Source: Nitrospirota bacterium | GTDB taxonomy: Bacteria > Nitrospirota > Nitrospiria > JACQBZ01 | Direction: 5' to 3' | Length of the DNA stretch: 64,000 bases | Assembly: GCA_016201865.1 (NCBI GenBank) | Contig: JACQCA010000012.1 | Span: 4,447 to 68,446, forward strand | Shown here: piece by piece, positions 2,918 to 62,780 of the stretch | Layout: each line of letters begins with the position of its first letter | Position numbering within the stretch: position 1 is the first letter of the stretch | Translations under genes and position numbers: made by a program | Notes under the pieces: model-generated | Databases searched by the model: none | Told to the model about the DNA's origin: nothing | Seen by the model: the letters and a program-made list of their open reading frames with translations, nothing else

Positions 2918-4150
2918 CTATAAATTAATGTTGATTCGCTTCCAGGTGGCCCCGGCATCCTGACTTTTCATGATGTATCCTAAAAAGGTCCCGGTGTAAA
3001 GGGTTGTATGCCGTAGCGTATCGATCGCAAGACTTGTAGTGTTATTACCTTGTTGGATCTCTCCATTGTCAATGTTCTCCCAGAAATTTCCTTCACTAAA
3101 ATAGTTCCTGGACAATCCATATACCCCCGCGTACAGAGCATCCTTGGCCCTCAACGCGTCGTCTGCCGGAGTATCGTTCAGATCCGGAATGGTCGGTGGG
3201 CATCGCGGCTCCTTCTGGATGCAAAAGGTCAGAACACGGACACTGAAACTCTGTACAGCAAACGGTATCGATACAACATTCCAACTCGTCCCCCCATTTG
3301 AACCTTTAAACAAGCTTCCCAGCGATTGACCTTCTCCCCCGCTGGTCCCCACATAAAGATCCGTCGGCACACGCGGATTGACGGCGATCACAAGAGGTGA
3401 GGCCGTCGTCTTTTCGCTCAGCCCCCCCAGAAGGGCCTCCTCCCATTTATTGCTGGTTCGGTTGAACCTGTAGAGATGGCCGCCTTCCGTCCCGGCATAA
3501 ATGTCCGAAGGCAACTTAATGTATGAGAAGACGGTCAACGCCGTCACGGTCATCTCGACAAGCCCGTTATTCATCTGGGTCCAATTAAGCCCATCGTCCT
3601 GGCTGACCCAGACGCCGCTTTCTTGGCTACCCACATAGAGACAGCGAGAAGGCGAACAGGGGGTAGACCATGGATCCACGGCGATCGCCGTAATGCTTTT
3701 GATGGTACCGGCAGAGGTCGACGGGTTAAACCAGTTCGCTCCGCCGTCGATCGTTTTAAATAATCCGTTATTCTCGGTGCCGGCATAAAGGGTCGCGGGA
3801 TCTTTTGGATCCATCACCAGTTTCGAAATATTCCATTCAATCAGCCCATCGACGATCCGGGTCCAGCTTCCTCCGCCATCCGGGCTTTTGAAGATGCCCC
3901 CGCCCGCCGTCGCCGCATAGACGGTGGGACAGTCCACCAGACCGGTGGAGCCATCCAAACTGCAACTGTTGGGGTCCAACAGAAGGGAAGTGATGGCATA
4001 GGAACTTCCGGTCTGCTTATTCGATGCGCTTCCCCAACAACCGCTTAAACTGATGGGAATCATGAATAATACGAATAAACCAACAATAAAACCGATACGG
4101 TTCATTCTACCTTTCCATCGAGACGACCGGAGAACTGGTGGACCGAACAA
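2918..4150 (-). CDS. BNR/Asp-box repeat beta-propeller lipoprotein (sialidase / xyloglucanase / Ycf48-like fold)
   Basis: Repeated YAGTENNGLFKTIDGGANW, YVGSQESGVWVSQDDGLNW, YVGTSGGEGQ...GSNGGTSW (S-x-D-G-G-x-(T/N)-W BNR signature). The probable start is the internal Met at ~4105 (MNRIGFIVGLFVLFMIPISLSGC, lipobox LSGC), which abuts the stop of the upstream gene at 4107. Confidence 0.65.
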   Translation of the reverse strand: MFGPPVLRSSRWKGRMNRIGFIVGLFVLFMIPISLSGCWGSASNKQTGSSYAITSLLLDPNSCSLDGSTGLVDCPTVYAATAGGGIFKSPDGGGSWTRIVDGLIEWNISKLVMDPKDPATLYAGTENNGLFKTIDGGANWFNPSTSAGTIKSITAIAVDPWSTPCSPSRCLYVGSQESGVWVSQDDGLNWTQMNNGLVEMTVTALTVFSYIKLPSDIYAGTEGGHLYRFNRTSNKWEEALLGGLSEKTTASPLVIAVNPRVPTDLYVGTSGGEGQSLGSLFKGSNGGTSWNVVSIPFAVQSFSVRVLTFCIQKEPRCPPTIPDLNDTPADDALRAKDALYAGVYGLSRNYFSEGNFWENIDNGEIQQGNNTTSLAIDTLRHTTLYTGTFLGYIMKSQDAGATWKRININL

Positions 4151-5162
4151 CCTTTTGTCCGGCCATTTCGACTACGGTAATCTCACCGTAACGCTCTCCA
4201 TACGAAACGTAGAGCCGCCCGCCGTCCGAGGTGGTCGTCATGCATCGGGGGGAATACTTTAATGGAATCGTCACGACCGCCTCCTGCTTCGCCGGATCCA
4301 CGACCGAAATGCTCTGCGATTGATTATTGAGGACATAGATCGGTCCTCCGGCAACCGTCAGAACTTCCATCGGCCGTTCCCCGATCCGGATTTTCCGAAT
4401 CACCTTCAGATCGTCCGTTCGAACGACGTTGAGCGTGCCGACATGGGCATCGCTCACAAACAGGAGCTGTCCGTCTTCCGAGACGGCTACATCGGTCGGG
4501 AATTCTCCCACGGAAGCTTTCCGAATCACCTCGAAGGAAGCGATCTCCACCACGGACAGATCGCCCGTGCCGCGATGCAGCACATACGCGTACCGACCTT
4601 CCGGATGAATGGCCATATCGGCGGGACGACCTCCTAACGAAAGGGTCTTCAGAACCTTGAGGGTATTCTTATCAATGACGGACAGGGTATCGGAGCCGTA
4701 GTTCGTAACGAAAAGATAGGGGGTTCGGGCCGATGTGGCGGCTCGAATTGGACGGTGCCCGACCGGGATTGTTTTCACCGCCTCCGGCGTTTTGAGGTTG
4801 ACGACCGTCACGTCATCCGAAAGGTAATTCACCACATACCCGATCTCACCGTCCATCGCCATCGCGATCGGCTTCCGGCCGACCGGAATTCGGTGAAGCG
4901 GACGAGCGGTCGCCGCATCCAAGATGAGCAGGCCGCTTTGCGGTTCGGAGTCGCGCAGCAGGTACAGGCGGGCATCATCGGGGGAAACGACGACGCGCAT
5001 AAACCCTTCCGGGATATCCGCCCAGGCCGCCTCGCCGGGATCATCCGGTGTGTGCGGTGCGGGGCTTGCGGTAAGCGTCGACAAGGCGCAACCCATTAAG
5101 ATCAATGATAAGGACGCTGCTGCTTGAACCATGACCCCGTTTCGCTTGAGTCGTTTTTTCAT
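4107..5162 (-). CDS. YVTN-family beta-propeller repeat lipoprotein (351 aa)
   Basis: Lipobox LILMGCALS. Blades of the 40-residue YVTN type: YVVNYLSDDVTVVNL, FVTNYGSDTLSVIDK, YVLHRGTGDLSVVEI, LFVSDAHVGTLNVVR, YVLNNQSQSISVVD. Confidence 0.7.
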   Translation of the reverse strand: MKKRLKRNGVMVQAAASLSLILMGCALSTLTASPAPHTPDDPGEAAWADIPEGFMRVVVSPDDARLYLLRDSEPQSGLLILDAATARPLHRIPVGRKPIAMAMDGEIGYVVNYLSDDVTVVNLKTPEAVKTIPVGHRPIRAATSARTPYLFVTNYGSDTLSVIDKNTLKVLKTLSLGGRPADMAIHPEGRYAYVLHRGTGDLSVVEIASFEVIRKASVGEFPTDVAVSEDGQLLFVSDAHVGTLNVVRTDDLKVIRKIRIGERPMEVLTVAGGPIYVLNNQSQSISVVDPAKQEAVVTIPLKYSPRCMTTTSDGGRLYVSYGERYGEITVVEMAGQKVVRSTSSPVVSMER

Positions 5163-5217: not shown

Positions 5218-6012
5218 TTAACGACCTTTCAGCACAAAATCAACCCGTGTCTCGTTCTTAGCCTTTACTTCAACCGGTTGGGTGATCCTATCGGGAGCGT
5301 CGTATACGGGTCGCTGTAACAGACCTGGGCCGGATTTTAATGAATCCTCATAGGAGGAACGGTTCGTCATCGTATAGCCTTCATGCCAGGCCACCAGCGT
5401 GTATTCTCCCGGCGGCACACCGGCGATTCTAAAACGTCCATTCTCTTCAGTAACTGAAAAGTAGGGGTGATCGAGTGAAACGGCCCATCCCTGCATGTGT
5501 GCGTGCGAATCACACTGGATATGAATGATACCGCCGCTTTTGATCGTCCTCTTTGCAACATGACCCATTTGGGGCAGCGCGAGGTTGAAAAGCGTGGCGC
5601 CCCGTTCATTGAATGCATGCACGTTGTGAAGCACCATGTCATTGCTATGAAACACGACAGGCCTATTTTTAAAAACGACCGATACATGGGGAACAAAAAG
5701 GCACTTAAAAGCGTCAATGGCCATGCCGGTTGGAATGGCTTTTCCTCGATGAATACCTTCAAGGTACACCACGGTATTCTTGACGCCCTTGTTGGAGGGA
5801 TTGACCACAAGCACCGGATCCCACACCGCCTCCCCGCAGAATTCAGGGTTCTTGACCACCGGAATGGCCGGGATATCGGGCACCGAACCCGCAAAAGTGA
5901 CTCGCCCGAAGATCGTGCCGCTTTCTACGACCTCCGTCTCATCGTAAGCCAAAGCTGCGCCCCAGGGATTCATGAGTAAGACTGTTATGGCAATCCAAAC
6001 AAACCGAGTCAT
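5218..6012 (-). CDS. cupredoxin-like (type-1 copper) domain protein with C-terminal CarbopepD_reg-like beta-sandwich, secreted (264 aa)
   Basis: Signal peptide MTRFVWIAITVLLMNPWGAALA. Candidate blue-copper ligand set: His in VVFHSNDMVLHNVH, then GGIIHIQCDSHAHMQGW (C-x2-H-x2-M, the amicyanin/pseudoazurin spacing in the G.Y...C..H..M.G context). The C-terminal GRFRIAGVPPGEYTLVAWHEGY is a typical carboxypeptidase-regulatory-like domain motif. Confidence 0.5.
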   Translation of the reverse strand: MTRFVWIAITVLLMNPWGAALAYDETEVVESGTIFGRVTFAGSVPDIPAIPVVKNPEFCGEAVWDPVLVVNPSNKGVKNTVVYLEGIHRGKAIPTGMAIDAFKCLFVPHVSVVFKNRPVVFHSNDMVLHNVHAFNERGATLFNLALPQMGHVAKRTIKSGGIIHIQCDSHAHMQGWAVSLDHPYFSVTEENGRFRIAGVPPGEYTLVAWHEGYTMTNRSSYEDSLKSGPGLLQRPVYDAPDRITQPVEVKAKNETRVDFVLKGR

Positions 6013-6022: not shown

Positions 6023-7228
6023 TTAATAGCAACAGGTGTTTTCTCCCAAATCTACGAAATAGACAAACATTCCATCCGTGGCAATCTCTAAAGGTTTTTT
6101 GAAGCCGACTCCACTGGCCAACTCCATTTGTGCAGGAGGAGGGCCGCCTTTTCCGATGCTCTTAACCGATGCGCTCCATACCTCGCTCCAGTAGACTTTG
6201 TTGTTATCCACGGCTACATTCATAGGCCAACTCAGCGATTCCGCCAGCAAGGTGCAGGATAATGAAGCCGAACCGGTTCCACAATCGGCCGGTGTAATCG
6301 GGTTCATTGGATCGGCATTCACTCCCGTAAGTTTATAGATCCTGCCCGCATCGGGACGCCCGACGTTAAAGTCCGCAAAATAAAGGATGTTTATACCATT
6401 ATTCTGAACCTCCAGCACAGGCGGGTACGGCGTTGAAAGCCCGGTGATCAGATTTTCCTGAACCGGCGGTATCGTAGACGCCGTCCGGCTCATCCGAAAC
6501 ACCCTCCCGCCGTACATTTCAACGACATAGACATACTGGGAATCCACCGCCACACCGACAGGCACGCTGAGATTCCCGGCCAAGGTCTCGACGCCCGTAA
6601 TCGTTCCGTCACTTCCAACCCGAATCTTTTTGACCGCGCCATCGGTATAGCCGTTCGTCTGTGTGCCTCGCTCGGAAAAGTAGACCGAGACCCCATTTTG
6701 ATCCGTGATTGCGACGACGGCAAACGGCGAGTTAAGGCCCGTCGCAAGAACGGTCTTTATTCCGGTATTAAGGTTCACGCGATCAACGGCGCCGTTGTCG
6801 CCATACTCCGTGAAATAAAGATCCCCATTATTGACGAACGAACTCCTCGGATTATTTAGTCCCCCCACCAGCACCTCCGGCGCGGTCCCCTGTACTGCAT
6901 CCGCATGGAGTTTTAGGATGCGCCCCGTACAATTTCCTGTTCCATCCTCGGTGAAATAGAGCATGCCGTTATCTACGGTCACGTGCCATGTAAGATTGAG
7001 CTGACCCACAAGCCTTTCCGGAAACGGCCCTCCGTTGACGGGCACTTTATAGAGCGCGCTTTTGTCTGTTTGAAACACGGAATCGCATTGGACTGCTAAA
7101 GCATTATTGTTCGGATTGGTCGTATTCGTGTTGGATGAAGGCGAGCTCATACAACCTCCCACCACGCCAAGCGCAGCCGAAACCGCCAGCGCGAGACCCA
7201 TCAGCGCATATCGTATTTGAAGTCGCAT
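6023..7228 (-). CDS. beta-propeller repeat lipoprotein (YWTD / NHL-like blades), 401 aa
   Basis: Lipobox VVGGCMSS. Repeated (L/V)YF(T/S)E...G.(I/V).(K/R)(L/V) blades: MLYFTEDGTGNCTGRILKL, DLYFTEYGDNGAVDRVNL, VYFSERGTQ...VKKIRV, ILYFADFNVG...RIYKL, KVYWSEVWSASVKSI. Confidence 0.5.
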   Translation of the reverse strand: MRLQIRYALMGLALAVSAALGVVGGCMSSPSSNTNTTNPNNNALAVQCDSVFQTDKSALYKVPVNGGPFPERLVGQLNLTWHVTVDNGMLYFTEDGTGNCTGRILKLHADAVQGTAPEVLVGGLNNPRSSFVNNGDLYFTEYGDNGAVDRVNLNTGIKTVLATGLNSPFAVVAITDQNGVSVYFSERGTQTNGYTDGAVKKIRVGSDGTITGVETLAGNLSVPVGVAVDSQYVYVVEMYGGRVFRMSRTASTIPPVQENLITGLSTPYPPVLEVQNNGINILYFADFNVGRPDAGRIYKLTGVNADPMNPITPADCGTGSASLSCTLLAESLSWPMNVAVDNNKVYWSEVWSASVKSIGKGGPPPAQMELASGVGFKKPLEIATDGMFVYFVDLGENTCCY

Positions 7229-32966: not shown

Positions 32967-34006
32967 TTCTCCTCCGCATCGGTATGCGTCAATCGTCGCG
33001 GGCGAGACCCGTCCCGGTCCATGACATAGACCTCCGAATTCCCATCCCGTGTTGAAGTAAACGCGATCTGTCTTCCGTCCGGAGACCAGACCGGCCAGAA
33101 ATGATCGCCAGGAGCGGTCGTCAGCGGCGTGAGTTCCGAGCCGTCCGGTCTTATCCGGTAAATTTCCTGGCGGCCGCTTCGATCGGACACAAAAAGAAGA
33201 TCGCGGCCGTCCGGAGACCAGACCGGTCCGTCATCCGCGGCCGGATGGTTCGTCGCGTTCCGCGCCCCGGATCCGTCGGACGCCATGACATAGATCTCGC
33301 GATTCGCGTCCCGTTCCGAAACGAACGCGATCTGTCTTCCGTCCGGAGACCAGACGTGGCTGTCCATGCCGTCGCTCGCCGAGTTGTACGTCAGCCGGAT
33401 CTGATTGGAACCGTCACGGTTCATGACATACACCTCAGGGTTTCCATCGCGGGTCGAGACAAACAGAATTTTCGTTCCATCCGGAGACCAAACCGGGATG
33501 GCATCCATGGCCGGGTCATGAGTCAATCGCCGCTCATGAAGCAAGGATGTTCGTTCATCGCCGCCGACGTCCACCGCGTAGATCTCTTCATTCCCATCGC
33601 GCAAGGATGTAAAGACGATCCGCTCCCCCTCCGGCGACCAGTCCGGATCCTCCTCATCGGCCTCGGTGTAGGTCAGCCGCGTCTGCCCTGTGCCGTCGGC
33701 CCGCATCAGATAAAGCTCCTTGTTGCCGTCACGGGTCGAGATGAAGGCGATGCGCGTCCCATCCGGAGACCCGGCCGGCCAGATGTCATCCCCGCGGCTT
33801 CGGGTCAGTCGTTCTTCTTTTCCGGTCGTCGCATCCATGAGATAAATTTCCCAGTCTCCGTCCCGGTTAGAACCGTAAACAAGTCGCGCATGGGGAGCAG
33901 GAGATTCGGAATGGATCCGAACCCCCATGCAGCCTGCCATCATCAATCCCAAAACCCCCAACCATTTCAGCACCGCTCTCGACTCTCGACTCACACTATT
34001 TGTCAA
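32945..34006 (-). CDS. TolB-like PD40 beta-propeller lipoprotein (353 aa)
   Basis: Lipobox LMMAGCMG. Blades DGDWEIYLMDATTGKEERLT, DGNKELYLMRADGTGQTRLTY, DGNEEIYAVDVGGD, DGNPEVYVMNRDGSNQIRLTY, DGNSEVYVMDRDGSRPRRLTH. Confidence 0.8.
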   Translation of the reverse strand: MTNSVSRESRAVLKWLGVLGLMMAGCMGVRIHSESPAPHARLVYGSNRDGDWEIYLMDATTGKEERLTRSRGDDIWPAGSPDGTRIAFISTRDGNKELYLMRADGTGQTRLTYTEADEEDPDWSPEGERIVFTSLRDGNEEIYAVDVGGDERTSLLHERRLTHDPAMDAIPVWSPDGTKILFVSTRDGNPEVYVMNRDGSNQIRLTYNSASDGMDSHVWSPDGRQIAFVSERDANREIYVMASDGSGARNATNHPAADDGPVWSPDGRDLLFVSDRSGRQEIYRIRPDGSELTPLTTAPGDHFWPVWSPDGRQIAFTSTRDGNSEVYVMDRDGSRPRRLTHTDAEEKWVSWGR

Positions 34007-34872
34007 TCCTTAGCGCATCGAAACCCGTAGGTATAATCCGAGTGCCAACCGTCCGCCTCACGGGGCCCGACGGTCGGAAGAACCGCTAATCGCGCGGCGG
34101 TTCTTGAAAAAGCGGCGTCGGTTAAATACGATCCGCCCCGGATGATCTTGAACGATCCGGACCCGCTCACGGCTCGCGCGGTGTTGCCCGGATAGGACCG
34201 ATAGACCGTCGCCGTCCATTCTCTTACGTTGCCGGCCATATCGTACACACCGTACGGGCTGAGATCCTCCGGATGACTCCCAACCGGCGCCTTCCAACCC
34301 TTCACTCCGTAATGCTCTTGTCCTTCCGGCGACTTCCAGCGCGCACTGGTCTCCAAGGTATTCGCGCGACCGGGTTCAAACCGATTGCCCCACGGCCAGA
34401 GACGCCCATCCGTCCCCCGCGCGGCCTTTTCCCATTCCGCCTCGGTCGGCAGGCGTTTCCCGGCCCACCGGCAGTATTCGACCGCATCAAACCAGTCCAC
34501 ATCCGATACGGGATAGGTTTCATATCCTTCCGGAAAGGAATCCTCGCGGCCCGCTTCCTTCCAATAACCCGGATACTTTTTTGAGCCGGTCGCCTTCAAA
34601 AATTGAAGATACTCCGCCTCCGTAATCTCATAGCGGTCGATATAAAACGACCGAACATACATCTTTTGCTGCGGGAGCTCATCCACCCCGATCTCAAATC
34701 CGATCTTCCCATCCCGGTCGGTGCTGCCGATCAGAAACGAACCGCCGGGGACATAGACCATAGGAGTCATAGGAGTCGCAGAGCGAGGGTTCGGAACGGC
34801 GGGGGTCATAAAGACACACCCTCCCAGAACCGGCCACAAAAGCAGCATCGTTAACCGGATTCTTTTTCTCAT
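34003..34872 (-). CDS. FGE-sulfatase (formylglycine-generating enzyme) fold protein, secreted, lacking the catalytic Cys pair (289 aa)
   Basis: Signal LTMLLLWPVLGGC. Diagnostic FGE-family motifs RLPTEAEWEKAARGTDGRLWPWGN and IRGGSY. The C-terminal region reads RGGSYLTDAAFSRTAARL, without the CxxxxC of catalytic FGEs; it ends GFRCAKD. Confidence 0.8.
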   Translation of the reverse strand: MRKRIRLTMLLLWPVLGGCVFMTPAVPNPRSATPMTPMVYVPGGSFLIGSTDRDGKIGFEIGVDELPQQKMYVRSFYIDRYEITEAEYLQFLKATGSKKYPGYWKEAGREDSFPEGYETYPVSDVDWFDAVEYCRWAGKRLPTEAEWEKAARGTDGRLWPWGNRFEPGRANTLETSARWKSPEGQEHYGVKGWKAPVGSHPEDLSPYGVYDMAGNVREWTATVYRSYPGNTARAVSGSGSFKIIRGGSYLTDAAFSRTAARLAVLPTVGPREADGWHSDYTYGFRCAKD

Positions 34873-35700
34873 CTAATTCGCATCCTTCGCGCACCGGAAA
34901 CCGAAATCCGGCTGGGCGAGATCGGCCAGCCGGTAATGCCGGTGGGCCGCACGCGCAAACGGATTCGCCGGCATTTCCCATGAACCGCCCCGCAGGATCC
35001 GAAATTTCTTGTCCGGCGCAATCGTCCGGGGTGATCCCGGATAGGATTTTAGAATTGACGCGGTCCATTCCATCGCATTCCCGGCCAGATCAAATACTCC
35101 ATAGGAACTGGCGCCTTCCGGAAGGCTTCCGACCGGCGTCGTCCAGTTACGTTTCGAGTCCTCGGTGTTCATCCGCTTTAAATCCAGTTCATTCCCCCAA
35201 GGCCAGATCCGGCCGTCCGTCCCGCGCGCCGCCTTTTCCCATTCCTCCTCGGTCGGCAAGCGTTTCCCCGCCCATCGGCAGTAGGCCTCGGCATCATAGA
35301 AGTTCACGTCGATCACCGGGTGATGATCCTCCGGCGCCGGATAACCGAATTCCTTGTAGTCCTTCCAGATCGCCGGAGATTCATGACCGGTTGCGGTCAC
35401 GAACGGCCGATACGATCCGACCGAGACCTCATAACGATCGATCCAGAACGCTTTGACGGAAACCGCATGCTTCGGCATGGAATCCACCCCCACTTCGAAT
35501 CCGATCTTGCCGTCGTTCGCGTCGCTCCCCATCATGAATTCACCGGCCGGAATAAGCGCCATGTCCGACGGCGGCGGGGATGCGGAAGCGGCATCAGCAT
35601 ACTGTTGAAGTATTAAACCGGCCGAAAGCATGATCCATACTCCCACCCCCGCACCCCTTAATACTTCAACCCTTGGACTCATTTTAGATCCGCCGCGCAC
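34873..35700 (-). CDS. FGE-sulfatase fold protein, secreted, non-catalytic paralog (about 270 aa)
   Basis: RLPTEEEWEKAARGTDGRIWPWGN, LRGGSW...FARAAHRHYR, no Cys pair, ends FGFRCAKD. The likely start is the Met at ~35682 (MSPRVEVLRGAGVGVWIMLSAGLILQQYADAA), overlapping the upstream gene by 4 nt. Confidence 0.8.
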   Translation of the reverse strand: MRGGSKMSPRVEVLRGAGVGVWIMLSAGLILQQYADAASASPPPSDMALIPAGEFMMGSDANDGKIGFEVGVDSMPKHAVSVKAFWIDRYEVSVGSYRPFVTATGHESPAIWKDYKEFGYPAPEDHHPVIDVNFYDAEAYCRWAGKRLPTEEEWEKAARGTDGRIWPWGNELDLKRMNTEDSKRNWTTPVGSLPEGASSYGVFDLAGNAMEWTASILKSYPGSPRTIAPDKKFRILRGGSWEMPANPFARAAHRHYRLADLAQPDFGFRCAKDAN

Positions 35701-36503
35701 CGAAAACCGATCGACCGATGCCTTTTCCCGGGCTCGCGGGCCATGCTGCGACTGGCCGATCGGGCATATGGTTCGCCCGGCAAGGTGTAGGCGCCGCCTT
35801 TGACGACCTTGTTTTTGCCGAACGCGTTCCGAACGAGTTTACTCCCCGGATAGGCCTGATACCAGTCGGCCGTCCATTCGGCCACATTACCGGCCATGTC
35901 GTATACCCCGTACGGACTGACACCTTTCGGAAAGCTGCCCACGGGAAGCGTGCCCGCCGCTTTATACTCTTGAACATTGGCCTTTTGCGGATCGAACATA
36001 TTTCCCCATGGCCAGATCCGACCGTCCGTGCCGCGCGCAGCCTTTTCCCACTCCGCCTCGGTGGGCAATCGCATCCCGGCCCATTTGCAGTAAGCATCCG
36101 CATCGTCCCATGACACATAAATCACCGGATGGTTTTCAAACTCCTTCGGAACGCCGCCCTCGCGGGCCCATGGATAAATCTCCGGGAACCGCGGATCGCC
36201 GGGCGGCTTTCTTCCGGTCGCTTCGATAAATTTTCGATACTGCTTTGCTGCGACCTCATACCGGTCGATCGAGTACGCTTTCAGATCCACCGCGTGCTGA
36301 GGCAGCTCGTCCACCCCCACCGTAAAACCCACGCGACCGTCTTTGGGCTCGCTTCCCATCAAAAACGTCCCGGCCGGAATCGGCACCATGTCGGCTGTAG
36401 GTTGCGAGCGGGCCTGCCCCCCGAAAAGCAATGAGCACGTTACCGCTTGAGTCATGAGCAGACTCCACTTGAATAATGTTCCTCCACGACTCACAACTCT
36501 CAA
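35679..36503 (-). CDS. FGE-sulfatase fold protein, secreted, non-catalytic paralog (about 274 aa)
   Basis: RLPTEAEWEKAARGTDGRIWPWGN, VKGGAY...YARSASRSMAREPGKRHRSIGFRCAAD, no Cys pair. The track start is TTG; an ATG (MTQAVTCSLLFGG) preceded by GGAG is an alternative start. Confidence 0.8.
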   Translation of the reverse strand: MRVVSRGGTLFKWSLLMTQAVTCSLLFGGQARSQPTADMVPIPAGTFLMGSEPKDGRVGFTVGVDELPQHAVDLKAYSIDRYEVAAKQYRKFIEATGRKPPGDPRFPEIYPWAREGGVPKEFENHPVIYVSWDDADAYCKWAGMRLPTEAEWEKAARGTDGRIWPWGNMFDPQKANVQEYKAAGTLPVGSFPKGVSPYGVYDMAGNVAEWTADWYQAYPGSKLVRNAFGKNKVVKGGAYTLPGEPYARSASRSMAREPGKRHRSIGFRCAADLK

Positions 36504-36528: not shown

Positions 36529-39500
36529 TTACCCGCTCGTTCCCGGGTTTCTTCCTCCCGCGCACCACCGGGCGTTCGGCGTGCCGGTGTTGCTCGACTG
36601 ATAAGCGCAGGAATCCATCACTTCGTTATGACAACGGAGGTAGCACCGGAAACTGGTGCCGTCATAGAACCACATCGGCTTCTGGGCCGTGGTCCCTTCC
36701 GCCTGAGGACCGAAATTAATCAGATGCGTTCCGACCACCCCGTCCGTCATGCCGTCCACGCTGTCGGGCGGCAGCATCCCGCCGCGACCGTCGCCGAAGA
36801 TGGTATTGAGCGCTTCGACATTCGAATGGACATTGTAGTGGCATTCATGGCACATCGCGCCGGTCCACCGGAGGTGATACATATGCAGATTGCCGTTCCA
36901 CCAGGAATCCACACCGCCTGAACTTGCCGCCGTATTCAGACCGAAGAAATGGGTCCAACTCCGATCCTTATCCAGGGATGGGGTACCCGATTGACTATCA
37001 ATCGGGTTTCCGGCCGAAGGGTCGAACCCGCGGCGATCGTGGCATTGGAAACAGAGAAGAAATTTCCTAAAGTGGGTCGGATTGATTCCTCCCCCGCCTC
37101 CGGCGATGGCATGGGAGGGTGTTCCTCCGGGAGCGCTATACCCATCGCCCTCCTTCCCCGCGCAACTGATCTGAGGATTGTTCTGTTCAAAACACCGGAT
37201 AGGACTTAGAATATCGGTATCGTAATTGGCACGCAGGATGCGCCGGTTAATCGAACCGTGCGGACCGATCGGCTTGCCCGGCCGATCCGTCACGTAATTA
37301 AAACCGATGACGGCATTTAAGTCCGGCCAGACATCCGTAGGTCTCAGATTGGATTCGGTCAGCGGCCCACGGATGCCAGAATTATCTTGCGCCGCCGTTG
37401 CAGCATCGAGATTGGCCTGGTAAATATTGGAGTAAACGTCATACGCATTGTTGTTGTGACAATCCGTGCATTGAATCGTCAGATTGCTCAACGCGGCCGA
37501 GGCCGCGGCCGGATTGCCGGGAGCAGGCACGACGTTGCCCGGCCCGTTGCCGCAGTTTAAGCTAAAGGCAACGGCCAGTTGGTTGCATAACTGAAAGGCG
37601 CCGTTGCGACCGGGTTTTACCACGGGATGGTAGGCCGGGTTTTTTATTTGCTGGGTATGTGAAAAGACCACTTGGCCATAGCGGGTCAGATCGATGCTCA
37701 ACATCGCAGGCGTTTCGACATCGGCCGTTTGGGGATTCAGTTCCCGCCATTTGTTGCTGAAGCCGCGGAACGAGAAGGCGGTGCCCGTGGCCCCATTGGT
37801 CGGATCGGTCCTGGGTGAAAACAGGGTCGTCTTGTAAGAGGCAAAACCATCCGGCACCGCAAGGCTGGTCACATCGTTGGGGTAGCGCAGGTTGGGCGTG
37901 CCTGTATCCGGACCGAAGACTTTTTCATAGCTGTTGCCGTGGCAACGGAAACAGACTTCGTAGACGTAGGGATCTCGATTGGCTGAGGTGCCGTCGACCG
38001 TGGTGTCCCTTCCACAGATCACATAGCCGGGCAGACACCGGCTTACCACCACGGGCCGCGTCCCCGTGATGTCGATGCCGACCCCCTTCGCCCCCTTCAA
38101 TCGTGCTCCTTGTCCGTTCGCGCCGGGACTTCCGATTCCGCCCGGAGGATTCGGGGCGCCATTGTAAGACAGCGCCGCCAAGTTGGGACTGTTCACTTGG
38201 TGGGGGTTGTGGCAGTCCACGCATTCCACATGGGTCGTATCAAGCGTCGTGATGCCGGGCGTCGTCTCGTTGTTCACCGGAACAAGCGCGGCTCCCTCGC
38301 TCCTGAGCTGGACTCCTTCTTGGGAGCGGGATATGATGACCGGCTCATGCCCGCCGGCCAACTGCAGACACATCGCGCTTCCCCCTCCCGATCCTCCCAA
38401 GCAGATCGCGCTGTCTTTGGCAAATTCGCTGTAGATATCGGGAGCGACGCGCGCCGAACCGGAACTGCCGCAGGCGCCGGACGTGTTGGTTCCGTCGCAG
38501 AACCGGTGATTCACATTTTGGACCGTGGGATCGCCGGCCGGAAGGAAGACGTTGGACACCGTTTGGTTGTTGGGCGAATGACAGAGGAAACAGGTGTTTT
38601 CCACGGCATCCCCGGCTCCAAAGGCCGTGACGCCTTCCCGGTGAAGCCTCTTCGCCCCCTGAGCGGTGTGGGGATCATGACAGTTTCGGCAGGCATACGC
38701 CGCAACTGTGTGGCCTCCGTCAAAATCATACGGGCTGCTCGCGCCGGGATAGGCCGCATGAACGGCCTGGCTGATATCATGCGTGCTGTTATCCCAGCCG
38801 GGTTTGCTGTGGCAATAGAGGCAGATGATTTGGCCGGCGGGAGCCACACGAGCAGGCTCGCCCACTAAATATCCCGTCTCGGTCGCGTCCTGGAACCGCG
38901 GCGCCCGAAGAAACTTGGGGTAGGTCACCGCATGGGGATTGTGGCAGGAGGTGCATTGGACTTTGTTGAAGTCGAGGGGGTCCGCGGGGTTGTTTCCCGG
39001 ATACCGTTTCACACCGGTCTGGTATCCCCCGGCCGGGGCCAAGGGGGTAATGGAGCTCAGAGCGGCGGGCGGTCCGGGATCCACCAGCTCCGCATCCACA
39101 TTGACCGCGAGGTTCGAATCAAACGAAAACGAGATCGGATGGTCGTTCTGAAGATTGGTGCCGAGCACGCGCGTGTCGCCGGTCAGCAGTCCCGCCCCAA
39201 CGGCCCCGGCTTGAGTAGACATGGCCCCGACTCCTAAGAAATCCGTCGTGGGCGTCTCTGTGCCGTATCCCCCCGATCCCGGTTTATTGATCACGCTGCC
39301 GATGGCGATCACCCCGTCGTGACACGAAAGACACAACCGGGAATAGCCGGTCGGCTTGCTCGGATCGTTCAGCGCTCCTTCGAATGAAAAGCTCCAGGCC
39401 TGATCATATAAGACATACGCCGTGGTATCCCGATAGGAAAGGTTCCGGTTCCAGATCGGCGCCTTAATCGCAGGAAGAGTGGAAGACGCTCCGACACTGC

Positions 39501-39843
39501 TCGCCCCGTGAGGGGTGTGACAGAAAACACAGACCTCGGACTGGCTCGCCGAGTGGGTCGTCCCGAACCCTGAAGAGGAAAGGTTATGTCGGCTGAGCCT
39601 GATATCCTCCTCGACAGCCACCGTCCCCGGCGGCAACGGCGGACATTCGGAACCGCCCGGACATGTGGCCCAGGCCTGCGAGTCGAGTATTGGGAGTTGA
39701 ACGTTGAAAGTTGAGAGCAAGGCGAAAATAAACCAAAAGAATACCACCTTGCCAGCGGCTGGGGACAGATTTGAAATCTGTCCCCTCCCGATTTTCAAAT
39801 CCGTCCCCTCCCGGTTCATCACTCTTCGATCCTTCCCTTTCAT
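36529..39843 (-). CDS. multiheme c-type cytochrome, 1104 aa, 11 CXXCH plus 1 CXXXCH heme-binding motifs, signal-anchored/secreted
   Basis: Motifs CVFCH, CLSCH, CTSCH, CLYCH, CRNCH, CFLCH, CVDCH, CFRCH, CTDCH, CFQCH, CHECH and CYLRCH. The N-terminal module (CVFCHTPHGAS...APIWNRNL...CLSCHDG...NDHPISF) matches the first module of the four smaller cytochromes at 57.9-63.6 kb. Strong RBS GGAGGAAGG before the ATG; hydrophobic segment VVFFWFIFALLSTF. Confidence 0.85.
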   Translation of the reverse strand: MKGKDRRVMNREGTDLKIGRGQISNLSPAAGKVVFFWFIFALLSTFNVQLPILDSQAWATCPGGSECPPLPPGTVAVEEDIRLSRHNLSSSGFGTTHSASQSEVCVFCHTPHGASSVGASSTLPAIKAPIWNRNLSYRDTTAYVLYDQAWSFSFEGALNDPSKPTGYSRLCLSCHDGVIAIGSVINKPGSGGYGTETPTTDFLGVGAMSTQAGAVGAGLLTGDTRVLGTNLQNDHPISFSFDSNLAVNVDAELVDPGPPAALSSITPLAPAGGYQTGVKRYPGNNPADPLDFNKVQCTSCHNPHAVTYPKFLRAPRFQDATETGYLVGEPARVAPAGQIICLYCHSKPGWDNSTHDISQAVHAAYPGASSPYDFDGGHTVAAYACRNCHDPHTAQGAKRLHREGVTAFGAGDAVENTCFLCHSPNNQTVSNVFLPAGDPTVQNVNHRFCDGTNTSGACGSSGSARVAPDIYSEFAKDSAICLGGSGGGSAMCLQLAGGHEPVIISRSQEGVQLRSEGAALVPVNNETTPGITTLDTTHVECVDCHNPHQVNSPNLAALSYNGAPNPPGGIGSPGANGQGARLKGAKGVGIDITGTRPVVVSRCLPGYVICGRDTTVDGTSANRDPYVYEVCFRCHGNSYEKVFGPDTGTPNLRYPNDVTSLAVPDGFASYKTTLFSPRTDPTNGATGTAFSFRGFSNKWRELNPQTADVETPAMLSIDLTRYGQVVFSHTQQIKNPAYHPVVKPGRNGAFQLCNQLAVAFSLNCGNGPGNVVPAPGNPAAASAALSNLTIQCTDCHNNNAYDVYSNIYQANLDAATAAQDNSGIRGPLTESNLRPTDVWPDLNAVIGFNYVTDRPGKPIGPHGSINRRILRANYDTDILSPIRCFEQNNPQISCAGKEGDGYSAPGGTPSHAIAGGGGGINPTHFRKFLLCFQCHDRRGFDPSAGNPIDSQSGTPSLDKDRSWTHFFGLNTAASSGGVDSWWNGNLHMYHLRWTGAMCHECHYNVHSNVEALNTIFGDGRGGMLPPDSVDGMTDGVVGTHLINFGPQAEGTTAQKPMWFYDGTSFRCYLRCHNEVMDSCAYQSSNTGTPNARWCAGGRNPGTSG

Positions 39844-52858: not shown

Positions 52859-52865
52859 GGCTGTT

Positions 52866-53606: not shown

Positions 53607-54716
53607 TTATTGTATTGGATTTTTTGTTCCTTCAACAGCGCCTCCGGCCGGTTGTGGCTGAGAAGCCGACGCATCTTCTTTAGGACTGCCTAAAAATAGA
53701 AATACCTGGACCCGTTGGTTATAAGTGTCCGCCACGTAAATCCGGTTCTTGTCGTCAATCGCGATCCCCGCCGGAAGGTAGAAATCCCCTTCTTTTTCAC
53801 CTGTTTGACCGAAATTCATCAATAAATCCCCTGTGCGGTCGAAGATCTGAATCGTGTCGAAGATCCCGTCCACAACGTAAATATGCCCTTCCAAATCCAC
53901 GGCGACGCCCTTCGGCTTTGAAAAACTACCGAGGATATTGCCCATTTGACCTAACTTTCCCTGAAATTTTCCTTCCGAGTCGAAAATCTGCACGCGGAAA
54001 TTCATCGAGTCCGTAATGTAGAGGGCGCCTTTGGAATCAACCGCAATGTGGGTCGGAAAATTTAATTCGCCCTCTTTTTCGCCCCGTTGGCCGAAGGTCG
54101 TTACCACGTTGCCGTCCGGATCGAATACCGTTACCCGATGGGCCGCGGTATCCACCGCGTAGAGGCGGCGCAACTTCGGATGATACGCGATGCCGGTCAG
54201 CCGCTGGAACTGCCCCGGTTCGCCGATCGTCTTTACCAATCGTCGTCTTTTGGGTTCGTAGACAAAGATACGGTTGAGTTGGGAATCGGAAACATAAAGC
54301 AACCCCTTTTCATCCAGCGCCACGCCCACCGGCGACATCAACCGGGACCGGCCCCGGACAATCCAGAAGATTTGCTGATAGCTCTTCGATGGAAAATCGT
54401 AGATGTGGACCGTCTGTAGACCGGTGTCCGCCACATAAACGCGGCCGGAACCATCCGTTGCCACGGCATACGGACGAAGCATATGAGGGCTGCCTTCCTC
54501 GCCGAACAGAAATTCGACGGCCTTCATGAACCAACTCCGCTTGGCCCCCATGTCCTTCGGTTCGGAGAAACTATTCAGATACGAAATCACGGGAGGATCC
54601 GGCGGCGTCGGCCAAGACCGCTCGACACGAGATCGGACCGGTTCCATGGCGGCGCACGCCGATAGAACGACGACGATGCCGATCCCGATAACCGTCTGAA
54701 TCGCCCGCTTCATCAC
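53607..54716 (-). CDS. NHL-repeat beta-propeller lipoprotein (369 aa)
   Basis: Track start is GTG followed by ATG: MMKRAIQTVIGIGIVVVLSACAAME (lipobox LSAC). NHL blades: VYVADTGLQTVHIYD, LYVSDSQLNRIFVYE, LYAVDTAAHRVTVFD, LYITDSMNFRVQIFD, IYVVDGIFDTIQIFD, IYVADTYNQRVQVF. Confidence 0.8.
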   Translation of the reverse strand: MMKRAIQTVIGIGIVVVLSACAAMEPVRSRVERSWPTPPDPPVISYLNSFSEPKDMGAKRSWFMKAVEFLFGEEGSPHMLRPYAVATDGSGRVYVADTGLQTVHIYDFPSKSYQQIFWIVRGRSRLMSPVGVALDEKGLLYVSDSQLNRIFVYEPKRRRLVKTIGEPGQFQRLTGIAYHPKLRRLYAVDTAAHRVTVFDPDGNVVTTFGQRGEKEGELNFPTHIAVDSKGALYITDSMNFRVQIFDSEGKFQGKLGQMGNILGSFSKPKGVAVDLEGHIYVVDGIFDTIQIFDRTGDLLMNFGQTGEKEGDFYLPAGIAIDDKNRIYVADTYNQRVQVFLFLGSPKEDASASQPQPAGGAVEGTKNPIQ

Positions 54717-56792: not shown

Positions 56793-57767
56793 TCAGTAAA
56801 TCTTGATCTCGGCCTTCGTCTTCAGGCCCGCAGCCCACTCCGCAAAACGTTTTTCGATGGCCGACGTCTTCATTTCTCTTCGTAATAACTCTTTATCCAC
56901 CTCCTCGTAACTCAACGGCTTGGAGGGACGTTTTTCCTCGATCTTGAACACGACATAGCCTTGAAGCAGTCTCACCGGATCGACGACGTCGCCGACCTTC
57001 CGTGAGAATGCCGCCTCCTCCATATCCGTAAACGGCAGACGACCCTGATGGAGCAAACCGGTGTCTCCTCCGTTCACCTTCGTTTCGTCATCCTCCGAAA
57101 ATTCAGCGGCCAACGAGGCCGCGTCCTCGCCCGCGCGGATTCGATCCGCAAGCCCCTGGGCTTTTTTACGGCCTTCTTCCCAGTCCGGCTCGCTCCCGCC
57201 GGGCTCGACCTTGATCAGGATCATTCGTAGACGAATCGCATCGGGTATGACAAACTGCTCCCGATGCCCGTCGTAGTAGGTTTTGAGCTCGTCGTCCGTG
57301 AGCACAATCTTGGAACGAACCTCTTGTTCCGTCACCTTTCGGATCATCAGATAACGCCCAAGCCCCTCGCGGACGTCGGACGGCGTCAGGCCCTGTCGAT
57401 CCAGGTTTTCCTTAAACTGCTTCTCGGAAGGGAAACGGCCCGCAATCCTGGAAAATTCGGCTTCCACCTCATTGGATTCAACCTTGATCCCAAGCCGAAT
57501 GGCTTCCTGATAAATCAGTTCCCTCACGATGAGCTTATTCAATTCTTCCTGTCGAATCTCGAAGAGACGATTTTGGGATAAAGATCGGTGGCCGGTGGCC
57601 GGAATTCGCTCTTCGATCGCCTGCTTCAACATCTTTACCGTAATGGGCGTATTATTGACTTTGGCGATCGGATCGGAATCCTTCTTTCCGCCTGCGGCGG
57701 ACGATTCCGCGGCCCGGCCCGTTCCGGCCAACACCAAGAACATAAGACAGGCGATGATGGTCCTCAT
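56793..57767 (-). CDS. SurA-like periplasmic chaperone / PpiC (parvulin)-type peptidyl-prolyl cis-trans isomerase (324 aa)
   Basis: Signal MRTIIACLMFLVLAGTGRA. The SurA_N-like region (PITVKMLKQAIEERIP...ELNKLIVRELIYQEA) is followed by one parvulin rotamase domain (EFSEDDETKVNGGDTGLLHQGRLPFTDMEEAAFSRKVGDVVDPVRLLQGYVVFKIEEKR). RBS AGGAG about 9 nt before the ATG. Confidence 0.75.
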   Translation of the reverse strand: MRTIIACLMFLVLAGTGRAAESSAAGGKKDSDPIAKVNNTPITVKMLKQAIEERIPATGHRSLSQNRLFEIRQEELNKLIVRELIYQEAIRLGIKVESNEVEAEFSRIAGRFPSEKQFKENLDRQGLTPSDVREGLGRYLMIRKVTEQEVRSKIVLTDDELKTYYDGHREQFVIPDAIRLRMILIKVEPGGSEPDWEEGRKKAQGLADRIRAGEDAASLAAEFSEDDETKVNGGDTGLLHQGRLPFTDMEEAAFSRKVGDVVDPVRLLQGYVVFKIEEKRPSKPLSYEEVDKELLRREMKTSAIEKRFAEWAAGLKTKAEIKIY

Positions 57768-57804
57768 GACTTGTTTGCTCCTAATGAATCAAAAATACCG
57801 TAAC

Positions 57805-57893: not shown

Positions 57894-57914
57894 AACACAA
57901 GGGCATTGCGCCCC

Positions 57915-60437: not shown

Positions 60438-60517
60438 TTTCTTCCCTCCCTATGTCGGTTCACCGTTGCCGCACGGACAACGGCTCGCCGCGCCAAAGAC
60501 AAACACACGATCTCGGT

Positions 60518-61618: not shown

Positions 61619-61636
61619 TTTCGTTTCCTCGCGACT

Positions 61637-62761: not shown

Positions 62762-62780
62762 TGTTTTAACCTTTTACCCC

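What the first reader, a model, noticed from the sequence alone, without database searches (positions are those of the whole stretch)
5218..6012. Putative type-1 copper (cupredoxin) domain fused to a CarbopepD_reg-like domain inside the propeller array
Seen in the sequence: GGIIHIQCDSHAHMQGW gives C-x2-H-x2-M preceded by a small-residue/aromatic beta-strand. This is the ligand loop arrangement of amicyanin/pseudoazurin-type blue copper proteins, with candidate upstream His in VVFHSNDMVLHNVH. GRFRIAGVPPGEYTLVAWHEGY is a carboxypeptidase-regulatory-like beta-sandwich motif. Inference: a secreted blue-copper electron carrier. A copper protein in a locus full of multiheme cytochromes and Cys-less FGE-fold proteins (the NirV/copper-enzyme association) hints at a periplasmic redox chain.
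Basis: partly seen in the sequence, partly recalled or inferred. Interest (0 to 1): 0.5.

Follow-up and report, generated by a model that had tools for sequence, protein, structure and literature searches.

The report
Unannotated blue-copper protein with nested domains
This gene encodes an exported protein in which an amicyanin-like blue-copper domain is nested inside a small beta-sandwich; it belongs to a very large family that databases label only by the sandwich, and it probably carries electrons for outer-membrane cytochrome systems.

Summary
ORF 5218-6012 (minus strand, 264 aa) has a signal peptide, and His129, Cys167, His170 and Met173 are invariant in 118 of 118 homologs. The family profile aligns them one-to-one with the copper ligands of amicyanin. 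An AlphaFold2 model (pLDDT 94) matches cupredoxins and the transthyretin-like domain of carboxypeptidase D. The two domains are nested, not joined end to end: the cupredoxin (about aa 96-180) sits inside the sandwich. Pfam sees only the sandwich, so the family (about 3,200 clusters at 50% identity) is annotated generically. Elsewhere, family members sit directly upstream of cyc2 (14 of 76 testable loci) and beside dihaem cytochromes c and haem-copper oxidases. The target's own clade instead always follows a ~400-aa propeller lipoprotein. That pair lies in a conserved Nitrospirota supercluster: a 30-strand porin, tetrahaem cytochromes, a roughly 12-haem cytochrome, three FGE-like genes and a propeller array. 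Best reading: a periplasmic type-1 copper electron carrier. The fold and ligands are shown; the function is inferred. Ligand geometry could not be measured, and homology to the Tenderia cupredoxin UetF could not be tested. This is a new variant of a known kind, of moderate interest.

The parts
5218..6012 (-). Complete gene, 264 aa plus stop: exported cupredoxin nested in a transthyretin-like (CarboxypepD_reg) sandwich
   Evidence: ORF list. An identical protein is in NCBI as 'carboxypeptidase regulatory-like domain-containing protein [Nitrospirae bacterium]'. AF2 model: pLDDT 94.1, pTM 0.89.
5947..6012 (-). Signal peptide, aa 1-22 (MTRFVWIAITVLLMNPWGAALA, probable cleavage after ALA); no lipobox Cys
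   Evidence: Read from the sequence. Helix at aa 3-13 with low pLDDT in the model. The cleavage site is inferred; no signal-peptide predictor was run.
5728..5946 (-). N-terminal part of the sandwich, aa 23-95: strand A (aa 32-41), a 35-residue loop carrying Cys59, and strand B (aa 76-85)
5473..5727 (-). Cupredoxin domain, aa 96-180, nine beta-strands
5626..5628 (-). His129, the N-terminal copper ligand (LHN motif; Asn130 follows)
   Evidence: Conserved 118/118, with Asn130 at 114/118. Aligns to amicyanin His53-Asn54.
5494..5514 (-). Ligand loop C167-D-S-H170-A-H-M173 (Cys, His and Met ligands)
   Evidence: C167, H170 and M173 are each 118/118. They align to amicyanin Cys92, His95 and Met98. 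One subgroup has C-x3-H-x2-M with all ligands kept.
5221..5472 (-). C-terminal part of the sandwich, aa 181-264, with a helical insert at aa 215-238 and the family-specific invariant Trp209-His210
6023..7228 (-). Upstream ~400-aa six-bladed propeller lipoprotein, the constant partner of the target's clade, separated by 10 nt
   Evidence: Its ortholog directly precedes the cupredoxin gene in L003, L089 and L090 at 47-50% identity. It matches designed six-bladed 'Pizza' propellers at E 3e-9.
4107..5162 (-). Downstream YncE/YVTN-type propeller lipoprotein
   Evidence: Pfam YNCE, Cytochrom_D1 and Lactonase hits. An ortholog lies downstream in L003 but not in L089 or L090.
54716..56683 (-). Context: outer-membrane beta-barrel of the upstream porin-cytochrome module
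   Evidence: AF2 model pLDDT 88.3: 30 long beta-strands and no helix. It has 32 homologs, all Nitrospirota where named.
56793..63650 (-). Context: SurA-type PPIase (56793-57767), three tetrahaem cytochromes (57915-58952, 59280-60437, 60518-61618), an NHL propeller (61637-62761) and a five-haem c7-like cytochrome (62781-63650)
   Evidence: CXXCH counts, Pfam hits and colinearity with L087 and L088.
36529..39843 (-). Context: 1,104-aa multihaem cytochrome with 11 CXXCH plus 1 CX3-4CH
   Evidence: It is 64% identical to the colinear genes in L087 and L088.
34003..36503 (-). Context: three FGE-sulfatase-fold paralogs without a C-x4-C pair
   Evidence: Pfam hits, Cys positions and conservation in L087 and L088. 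A homolog is start/stop-coupled to a cupredoxin family member in L091.

Best explanation
The gene encodes an exported, roughly 27-kDa type-1 (blue) copper protein. An amicyanin-like cupredoxin (about aa 96-180) binds one copper through His129, Cys167, His170 and Met173. It is nested between the second and third strands of a transthyretin-like (CarboxypepD_reg) beta-sandwich. A Cys59-Cys104 disulfide probably ties the two parts together.

It most likely works as a one-electron carrier in the periplasm. The copper centre accepts electrons from c-type cytochromes that bring them across the outer membrane. Here that means the conserved module of a 30-strand porin, tetrahaem cytochromes and a roughly 12-haem cytochrome. 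The copper centre then passes the electrons on towards a terminal oxidase. The sandwich serves as a docking module for a partner, most probably the ~400-aa propeller lipoprotein encoded 10 nt upstream.

Shown here: the fold, the conservation of the ligands, their correspondence to amicyanin, the nested architecture, and the conserved gene contexts.

Inferred: copper binding itself, redox function, direction of electron flow, the identity of the partners, and the docking role of the sandwich.
For: Ligands. H129, C167, H170 and M173 are invariant in 118/118 homologs, and N130 is 114/118. The family profile aligns LHNVH to amicyanin PHNVH (His53), and CDxHxHM to CTPHPFM (Cys92, His95, Met98), at E 2.6e-4 to 1.6e-3.

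Cysteines. 111 of 118 members have exactly three Cys. C59 and C104 are lost together in the same two sequences.

Export. A signal peptide with an ALA cleavage motif is visible in the sequence.

Nested architecture.

Family context.
- Nineteen of 84 loci carry a Cyc2-criteria ORF. In 14 of the 76 loci with enough downstream sequence to test, it sits at +1 or +2 on the same strand (criteria from PMC8406198).
- A dihaem cytochrome c occurs in 29 loci and COX1 in at least 8.
- One member lies inside an aa3 oxidase operon, and a DUF983 fusion exists.
- One locus reads octahaem cytochrome, family member, COX1. Another reads family member, bd-like oxidase.
- One member lies near a NirK-like gene.

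Own context. The pair of propeller gene then cupredoxin gene is conserved in 4 of 4 loci of the clade. The window is colinear with Nitrospiria loci across the porin-cytochrome-FGE part.

Precedent for docking. The sandwich superposes at 1.7 A on Kustc1130, which binds a multihaem complex next to its electron exit sites (PMC6469936).
Against: No cupredoxin model in Pfam or NCBIfam matches the protein. Across the family, only 3 of 118 members give weak hits.

The window contains none of the family's usual redox partners: no cyc2, dihaem cytochrome c4 or COX1 (no Cyc2 motif in six frames). The nearest cytochrome gene is about 30 kb away.

The immediate neighbours are propellers of unknown function.

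Some family members sit in contexts with no redox genes, such as PilZ or SHOCT neighbours. No background rate of cytochrome genes near random genes was computed for these genomes.
Confidence: 0.6

Rival explanations
1. It is a copper chaperone or insertase. On this reading it delivers Cu(I) to a cuproenzyme (the CuA or CuB site of an oxidase, a multicopper oxidase, or the FGE-like proteins) and does not transfer electrons.
For: Family members lie in aa3 and cbb3 oxidase clusters, next to FixS and P-type ATPase genes and beside large multicopper-oxidase-like genes. To my knowledge, cupredoxin-like folds are used by chaperones such as PCuAC.
Against: The ligand set is the classical buried type-1 set with an invariant Cys and axial Met, aligned one-to-one with amicyanin. 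The target has no PCuAC motif H(M)x10Mx21HxM and no CxxxC or CxxC motif. To my knowledge, type-1 sites hold copper tightly and do not exchange it.
Confidence: 0.1
2. It is a catalytic or substrate-facing mononuclear copper protein. It might oxidise a small molecule (for example NO, nitrite or a metal ion), or be the dedicated redox partner of an enzyme formed by the neighbouring propeller or by an FGE-like protein. On this reading it is not a general shuttle.
For: The best Foldseek hit is the purple cupredoxin of Nitrosopumilus maritimus (5fc9). The strictly conserved pairing with one propeller and the start/stop coupling to an FGE-like gene in L091 fit a dedicated two-protein unit. Invariant Trp209-His210, near-invariant Asp168 and His132 are unexplained and could form a second site.
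Against: The axial Met is invariant, which argues for a closed, coordinatively saturated site and against an open one. The broad family context is cytochromes and oxidases. No propeller or FGE partner is conserved across the wider family.
Confidence: 0.2
3. It is a structural or adhesive beta-sandwich protein of the propeller array, and its metal site is vestigial or binds a non-redox metal such as zinc.
For: Sequence databases see only CarboxypepD_reg and PL4-domain-II folds, which are typical of surface and adhesin proteins. The neighbours are propellers and giant Laminin_G/fn3 proteins. The Bacillus anthracis Cupredoxin_1 protein has been crystallised with zinc as well as copper (4hcg and 4hcf).
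Against: All four ligands are absolutely invariant across several phyla and about 3,200 clusters at 50% identity, so the site is under strong selection. The recurrent link to respiratory genes also argues against a purely structural role.
Confidence: 0.07

Closest known systems
Amicyanin (Paracoccus; PDB 1aac, 1aaj)
   Different: Identity is only about 19%. There is no Pfam Copper-bind hit. The domain is nested inside a second domain and is not free-standing. Asp follows the Cys, where amicyanin has Thr. No methylamine dehydrogenase genes were seen in the window.
Rusticyanin and AcoP of the Acidithiobacillus ferrooxidans rus operon (cyc2-cyc1-acoP-coxBACD-rus)
   Same: These are periplasmic cupredoxins encoded with the fused cytochrome-porin Cyc2, a dihaem cytochrome c4 and a terminal oxidase, and they carry electrons from Cyc2 inward (PMC10654088). 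Many members of the present family show the same gene logic: family member, then cyc2, then a dihaem cytochrome c, then COX1.
   Different: There is no detectable sequence relationship beyond the fold (AcoP TM 0.45-0.49). The architecture differs. The hosts are Nitrospirota, Acidobacteriota and Gammaproteobacteria. The target gene itself has no cyc2 nearby.
UetF, the 'much larger' cupredoxin of the uetABCDEFGHIJ cluster of Ca. Tenderia electrophaga (bioRxiv 10.1101/2022.05.06.490989)
   Same: It is an oversized cupredoxin encoded in a cluster with a tetrahaem cytochrome, a PPIase, a large beta-barrel, c7-type cytochromes, NHL propellers and an undecahaem cytochrome. The window has the same order of tetrahaem, PPIase, barrel, NHL, plus an 11-12-haem cytochrome.
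   Different: The barrel here has 30 predicted strands against the 28 reported for UetC. The cupredoxin lies about 49 kb from the barrel, within a propeller array that the Uet cluster lacks.
Porin-dodecahaem cytochrome c (PCC) complexes proposed for Mn(II) oxidation in Ca. Manganitrophus (PMC9040806)
   Same: These are Nitrospirota systems with an outer-membrane barrel and a roughly 12-haem cytochrome, proposed as an electron-uptake route.
   Different: Orthology to PCC_1, PCC_2 or PCC_3 was not tested. That paper's main text does not mention a cupredoxin, blue copper, plastocyanin or propellers (term search).
Kustc1130, assembly factor of the hydrazine dehydrogenase complex (PDB 6hif_Y; PMC6469936)
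   Different: It is free-standing, with no inserted copper domain, and shares only 15% identity. This is a structural resemblance and was not tested as homology.

Membership tests
Cupredoxin / type-1 blue copper proteins | Greek-key beta-sandwich cupredoxin fold | tested here: met
Cupredoxin / type-1 blue copper proteins | One upstream His (usually followed by Asn), plus Cys, His and Met in the loop between the last two strands | tested here: met
   H129-N130 and C167-x2-H170-x2-M173. The four ligands are invariant in 118/118 and align to amicyanin His53, Cys92, His95 and Met98.
Cupredoxin / type-1 blue copper proteins | The four ligand side chains converge on one metal site | not testable with these tools
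   The tools do not return model coordinates. There is only indirect support from the low-rmsd superpositions.
Cupredoxin / type-1 blue copper proteins | Match to curated sequence models (Pfam Copper-bind PF00127, Cupredoxin_1 PF13473) | tested here: not met
   The target gives no hit at E<=10. Across the family, 2/118 hit Copper-bind (best E 0.062) and 1/118 hits Cupredoxin_1 (E 0.016). NCBIfam gives nothing. So the protein has the fold and ligand set of this superfamily, but it is not a member of those Pfam families.
Cupredoxin / type-1 blue copper proteins | Binds copper with type-1 spectroscopy and a reversible redox couple | not testable with these tools
   This needs protein chemistry.
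CarboxypepD_reg / transthyretin-like beta-sandwich (PF13620) | Score above the Pfam gathering threshold, and a seven-strand sandwich fold | tested here: met
Uet-type extracellular electron uptake cluster (Tenderiales) | Gene order of tetrahaem cytochrome, PPIase, large beta-barrel, with NHL propellers and an undecahaem cytochrome | tested here: met
   57915-58952 (4 haems), then 56793-57767 (SurA/PPIC), then 54716-56683 (30-strand barrel), then 53607-54716 (NHL), plus 36529-39843 (11+1 haem motifs).
Uet-type extracellular electron uptake cluster (Tenderiales) | Sequence homology of the components, including cupredoxin UetF, to the Tenderia proteins | not tested
   The Tenderia sequences could not be reached. 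The barrel search returned only Nitrospirota. No Tenderia entry was among the 120 best hits of the gammaproteobacterial branch. No supplementary files are held for the preprint.
Cyc2-linked iron-oxidation module (cyc2, cytochrome c4, oxidase) | A Cyc2 gene (signal peptide, AxPxFAR[Q/K][T/Y], a single CXXCH, PxL, at least 365 aa) next to the gene | tested here: not met
   The window has no such motif in any frame. The feature is met for 19 of 84 loci of the wider family, with the ORF at +1 or +2 on the same strand in 14 of the 76 loci that have enough downstream sequence.
PCuAC-type copper chaperone | H(M)x10Mx21HxM copper-binding motif | tested here: not met
   A regex search of the target found none.
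CuA domain (cytochrome oxidase subunit II / NosZ) | Two Cys in a C-x3-C ligand loop | tested here: not met
   The loop has only one Cys and the protein has no C-x3-C, although CuA domains do appear among the fold hits.

The most novel reading that the evidence does not exclude
This family, an amicyanin-like copper centre nested in a transthyretin-like docking sandwich, may be the widespread and so far unrecognised periplasmic electron acceptor of outer-membrane electron conduits. Those conduits would include Cyc2 and porin-multihaem-cytochrome modules in neutrophilic Nitrospirota, Acidobacteriota and Gammaproteobacteria. The family would then be the functional counterpart of rusticyanin. In the target's clade, the carrier would have been recruited to a propeller-scaffolded porin/dodecahaem system.
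Probability: 0.3. Interest if true: 0.7.

Novelty: new variant of a known kind. Interest (0 to 1): 0.5.

Why it matters
Cupredoxins are textbook electron carriers. This branch is invisible to Pfam and NCBIfam, so about 3,200 clusters (at 50% identity) are labelled 'carboxypeptidase regulatory-like', 'polysaccharide lyase family 4 domain II' or 'hypothetical'. Metabolic reconstructions of Nitrospira, Acidobacteriota, Steroidobacteraceae and related MAGs therefore miss a likely copper-dependent step that lies next to cyc2 and terminal oxidase genes.

If the family accepts electrons from Cyc2 or porin-cytochrome conduits, it gives a concrete and testable candidate for the periplasmic link in neutrophilic metal oxidation or electron uptake. 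It would also provide a simple marker: H...C-x2-3-H-x2-M followed by PGxYxLVAWH.

A redox domain inserted into a docking sandwich is also an unusual solution for tethering a carrier to its partners.

Tried and rejected
- **Pfam and NCBIfam on the whole protein and on the excised cupredoxin segment.** No copper family was found.
- **PDB sequence search with the single sequence.** It gave only a weak NOMO hit. The family profile was needed to reach amicyanin.
- **AlphaFold-database fold search.** The library was not available.
- **Ligand geometry.** The tools return no model coordinates.
- **A natural 'ligand-loss' control.** The Acidobacteriota/PilZ-linked subgroup seemed to lack the loop. On alignment it has C-x3-H-x2-M with all ligands kept, so there is no control.
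- **Reaching UetF of Tenderia.** I tried homologs of the window's barrel, a profile of gammaproteobacterial family members and the preprint's supplements. All failed.
- **The family's usual partners in the window.** No cyc2, dihaem cytochrome c, COX1 or AlgE-type porin was found.
- **A split NosZ-like enzyme (cupredoxin plus YncE/lactonase-type propeller).** I rejected this on inspection. The loop has one Cys, so it is not CuA. By eye the propeller has few His. The YncE neighbour is also not conserved in L089 and L090.
Full report
**1. The observation**

The ORF lies exactly at 5218-6012 on the minus strand and encodes 264 aa. All three quoted peptides are present. The loop reads C167-D-S-H170-A-H172-M173.

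The C-x2-H-x2-M spacing alone is weak evidence. It occurs five times in the six-frame translation of the window against about 1.4 expected, and once more in a real ORF at 52866-53510. Conservation is what makes it real.

The protein has 366 word-index homologs. An exhaustive profile search finds 3,177 clusters at 50% identity at E<=1e-30, and 13,552 at E<=1e-10, some of which share only the sandwich.

In an alignment of 118 members, the column counts are as follows:

| Residue | Conserved in |
|---|---|
| His129, Cys167, His170, Met173, Asn143, Trp209 | 118/118 |
| His210 | 117/118 |
| Asp168 | 116/118 |
| Asn130 | 114/118 |

Cys59 and Cys104 are each present in 116/118. They are missing together in the same two sequences. 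Of the 118 members, 111 have exactly three cysteines. The natural reading is one disulfide plus one free thiol ligand (inference).

**2. What the protein is**

Pfam reports only CarboxypepD_reg (37.5 bits, cut-off 32.3) and fn3_3, over aa 173-261. No copper family appears even at E<=10, and NCBIfam reports nothing. Across the family, all 118 members hit CarboxypepD_reg. Only 2 weakly hit Copper-bind (best E 0.062) and 1 hits Cupredoxin_1 (E 0.016). This explains the names that sources give: 'carboxypeptidase regulatory-like domain-containing protein', 'Polysaccharide lyase family 4, domain II' and 'hypothetical protein'. JGI sometimes gives 'plastocyanin'.

An AlphaFold2 model built on the 118-sequence alignment is confident (mean pLDDT 94.1, pTM 0.89).

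- **Foldseek against the PDB.** The 50 listed best hits are all cupredoxins. They include the purple cupredoxin of Nitrosopumilus (5fc9), pseudoazurin carrying an engineered amicyanin loop (2ux6), amicyanin, plastocyanin and CuA domains.
- **Family profile against PDB sequences.** It reaches amicyanin at E 2.6e-4 to 1.6e-3 over amicyanin residues 20-104. The family's LHNVH aligns with PHNVH (His53), and CDxHxHM aligns with CTPHPFM (Cys92, His95, Met98). That these four residues are amicyanin's copper ligands is established knowledge.

The protein therefore carries a complete type-1 copper ligand set in the right fold. I could not measure side-chain geometry, because the tools do not return coordinates.

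**3. Architecture**

The nine strands between aa 97 and 180 form the cupredoxin. Strands at aa 32-41 and 76-85 precede it. Strands at aa 185-262 follow it, interrupted by a helical insert at aa 215-238.

Three results indicate that the N-terminal strands belong to the sandwich:

- Removing aa 96-180 raises the CarboxypepD_reg score to 41.9 bits, and the match then runs back to profile position 6 through aa 69-95.
- The paired Cys59 and Cys104 would link the A-B loop of the sandwich to the first cupredoxin strand (inference).

The cupredoxin is therefore inserted between strands B and C of the sandwich, and the two are not fused end to end.

The N-terminus (MTRFVWIAITVLLMNPWGAALA|YDE) looks like a Sec signal peptide with no lipobox. 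This was read from the sequence; no predictor was run. The neighbouring propellers mostly carry lipoprotein-type Cys motifs.

**4. Context in the window**

Every gene from 63650 down to 852 is on the minus strand. In order, the window holds:

- a five-haem c7-like cytochrome, an NHL propeller and three tetrahaem cytochromes;
- a SurA-type PPIase;
- a 655-aa protein with no Pfam hit;
- an NHL propeller;
- a 214-aa lipoprotein and two giant Ig/Laminin_G proteins (1,519 and 2,769 aa);
- a 1,104-aa cytochrome with 11 CXXCH plus one CX3-4CH;
- three FGE-sulfatase-fold proteins;
- about twenty PD40, YncE, BNR and Kelch-type propeller proteins, with the cupredoxin gene among the last of them.

The 655-aa protein has only 32 detectable homologs, all Nitrospirota where named. 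It is predicted with pLDDT 88.3 to be 30 long beta-strands with no helix, i.e. a very large outer-membrane barrel.

Two Nitrospiria loci (L087, L088) are colinear with the window from 63650 to about 30747 at 46-90% identity. They lack the 39924-53510 block.

A third organism (L003) is colinear from 21546 to 852 and includes the cupredoxin at 57% identity. In L089 and L090 (61-64% identity) the array is shuffled, but the ortholog of the 6023-7228 propeller still immediately precedes the cupredoxin gene. That pair is thus conserved in all four loci, with gaps of about 10-14 nt or a small overlap.

In the more distant L091 (50% identity), the cupredoxin gene is start/stop-coupled to an FGE-like gene. 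That gene is 43% identical to 35679-36503. It sits beside a sulfite-oxidase-type molybdoenzyme gene.

**5. Context across the family**

A scan of one genome per species found at least 588 loci. They span Nitrospirota, Methylomirabilota/Rokubacteria, Acidobacteriota, Gammaproteobacteria (Steroidobacteraceae), Nitrospinota, Planctomycetota, Myxococcota and others.

I clustered the neighbouring ORFs of 84 loci and annotated representatives. The recurrent partners are:

| Partner | Loci |
|---|---|
| Dihaem cytochrome c, same strand, +2 to +4 | 29 |
| ~490-aa protein at +1 | 22 |
| P-type ATPase | 10 |
| COX1 | at least 8 |
| Alginate_exp-type porin at +1 | 7 |
| 900-1,660-aa multicopper-oxidase-like protein at -1, often followed by two or three tandem family paralogs | 7 |

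The ~490-aa proteins meet the published Cyc2 criteria (PMC8406198): a signal peptide, A-x-P-x-F-A-R-K-Y, a single CXXCH, PxL, and at least 365 aa. They also end in an aromatic residue. In all, 19 of 84 loci carry such an ORF. In 14 of the 76 loci with enough downstream sequence to test, it lies at +1 or +2 on the same strand.

Individual look-ups show further arrangements:

- family member, then cyc2-like gene, then dihaem cytochrome c, then CcoN/CcoO-type genes, FixS and a P-type ATPase;
- a member inside an aa3 operan-type cluster of COX2-COX1-CtaA-CtaB-COX3-COX4-DUF983, plus a DUF983 fusion protein;
- octahaem cytochrome, then family member, then COX1, and separately family member, then bd-like oxidase subunit;
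- a member near a NirK-like gene and a Copper-bind protein.

Not every context is redox. Some members sit beside PilZ, SHOCT or histidine-kinase/GGDEF genes. I did not compute a background rate for these associations.

The window contains none of these usual partners and has no Cyc2 motif in any frame.

**6. Mechanism**

The best-supported reading is a periplasmic one-electron carrier. The type-1 copper centre would accept electrons from c-type cytochromes of an outer-membrane conduit and pass them towards a terminal oxidase.

To my knowledge, amicyanin-type sites have high potentials. That would fit inward (oxidative) electron flow better than metal reduction, but this point is an inference.

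Three rivals remain:

- **Copper chaperone.** There is no PCuAC, CuA or Sco-type motif, and the site is a closed type-1 site.
- **Catalytic site, or dedicated partner of a propeller or FGE-like enzyme.** This is not excluded. It is encouraged by the L091 coupling and by the unexplained invariant Trp209-His210.
- **Purely structural protein.** This is contradicted by the invariance of the ligands.

**7. Comparison with what is known**

- **Structure.** The copper domain is closest to amicyanin.
- **Function.** The family-wide gene logic parallels the rus operon of A. ferrooxidans, where rusticyanin and AcoP link Cyc2 to cytochrome c4 and the oxidase (PMC10654088).
- **Context.** The window resembles two described systems. 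One is the uet cluster of Ca. Tenderia electrophaga, with its tetrahaem-PPIase-barrel order, NHL propellers, an undecahaem cytochrome and an oversized cupredoxin UetF (10.1101/2022.05.06.490989). The other is the porin-dodecahaem (PCC) complexes proposed in Ca. Manganitrophus (PMC9040806).

I could not obtain the Tenderia or Manganitrophus sequences, so homology to UetF or the PCC components is untested. An earlier Tenderia study mentions a 'copper containing plastocyanin homolog' grouped with a ccoO homolog and co-expressed with cyc2 (10.1101/074997). This shows that such genes have been noticed only generically. A full-text search for 'cupredoxin' together with 'carboxypeptidase regulatory-like' found no paper.

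**8. Verdict**

The nested architecture and the family context are refinements to it.

It is a new variant of a known kind: a classical type-1 copper centre in an unusual nested architecture. It defines a very large family that is annotated only through its other domain.

Interest is moderate at 0.5. The chemistry is ordinary. The size of the blind spot and the recurrent adjacency to cyc2 and to oxidases make it a useful, testable lead for electron-uptake and metal-oxidation pathways.

Noticed in passing
window 52866-53510 (-): A 214-aa lipoprotein with a second C-x2-H-x2-M motif (VSCATHQFM at aa 173). It sits inside the porin-cytochrome module next to an NHL propeller. It has no Pfam or PDB hit and no obvious upstream His-Asn, so the motif could be chance or a second, very divergent copper protein.
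   Followed up: partly
window 39924-53510 (-): A block of three genes that is absent from the otherwise colinear Nitrospiria loci L087 and L088. It holds the 214-aa lipoprotein, a 1,519-aa Ig/PhoD_N-like protein and a 2,769-aa protein with four Laminin_G_3 domains plus fn3. It looks like a lineage-specific insertion of giant surface or adhesin-like proteins into the cluster.
   Followed up: partly
window 54716-56683 (-): An outer-membrane barrel predicted with 30 beta-strands (pLDDT 88). That is more than the 26 strands of MtrB and the 28 predicted for UetC, both as reported in the Tenderiales preprint. Only 32 homologs were detected, all Nitrospirota where named, and there is no Pfam family. 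The called TTG start is probably too far upstream, since homologs are 590-650 aa.
   Followed up: partly
window 34003-36503 (-); L087 16150-18700; L091 2728-3636: Three tandem FGE-sulfatase-fold paralogs always follow the ~1,100-aa multihaem cytochrome. Each has 2-3 Cys but no C-x4-C pair, and each ends in a conserved GFRCA motif. In L091 a homolog is translationally coupled to a cupredoxin family member. Their role is unknown.
   Followed up: partly
L001, L005, L017, L018, L020, L021, L024, L025, L027, L028, L035, L037, L039, L041 (gene at +1): Cyc2-type fused cytochrome-porins (AIPAFARKY..CxxCH..PxL, C-terminal DFA[YF]) lie immediately downstream of the cupredoxin family gene in Nitrospira, Acidobacteriota and Steroidobacteraceae genomes. 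I found no description of this adjacency in the papers I searched.
   Followed up: partly
L065, L069, L074, L076, L081, L084: In Nitrospiraceae MAGs, a 900-1,660-aa multicopper-oxidase-like protein is followed by two or three tandem paralogs of the family, whose loop reads CGFHAYM. This may be a copper-only oxidation module.
   Followed up: no
window 5383-5388 (Trp209-His210) and 5509-5511 (Asp168): Family-specific invariant residues lie outside the canonical ligand set: Trp209 at 118/118 and His210 at 117/118 on the sandwich, and Asp168 at 116/118 next to the Cys ligand. They might form an interdomain electron path or a second site. This cannot be placed without coordinates.
   Followed up: no
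window 6023-7228 (-): The conserved partner propeller is a lipoprotein with 7 Cys that ends in ...ENTCCY. It resembles designed six-bladed 'Pizza' propellers (E 3e-9) and has no curated family above threshold.
   Followed up: partly
P0058; locus of P0054: A 391-aa fusion of DUF983 with the cupredoxin-sandwich protein exists. In the P0054 contig, DUF983 and the family member are adjacent at the end of an aa3 cytochrome oxidase operon, with a second paralog upstream of COX2.
   Followed up: no
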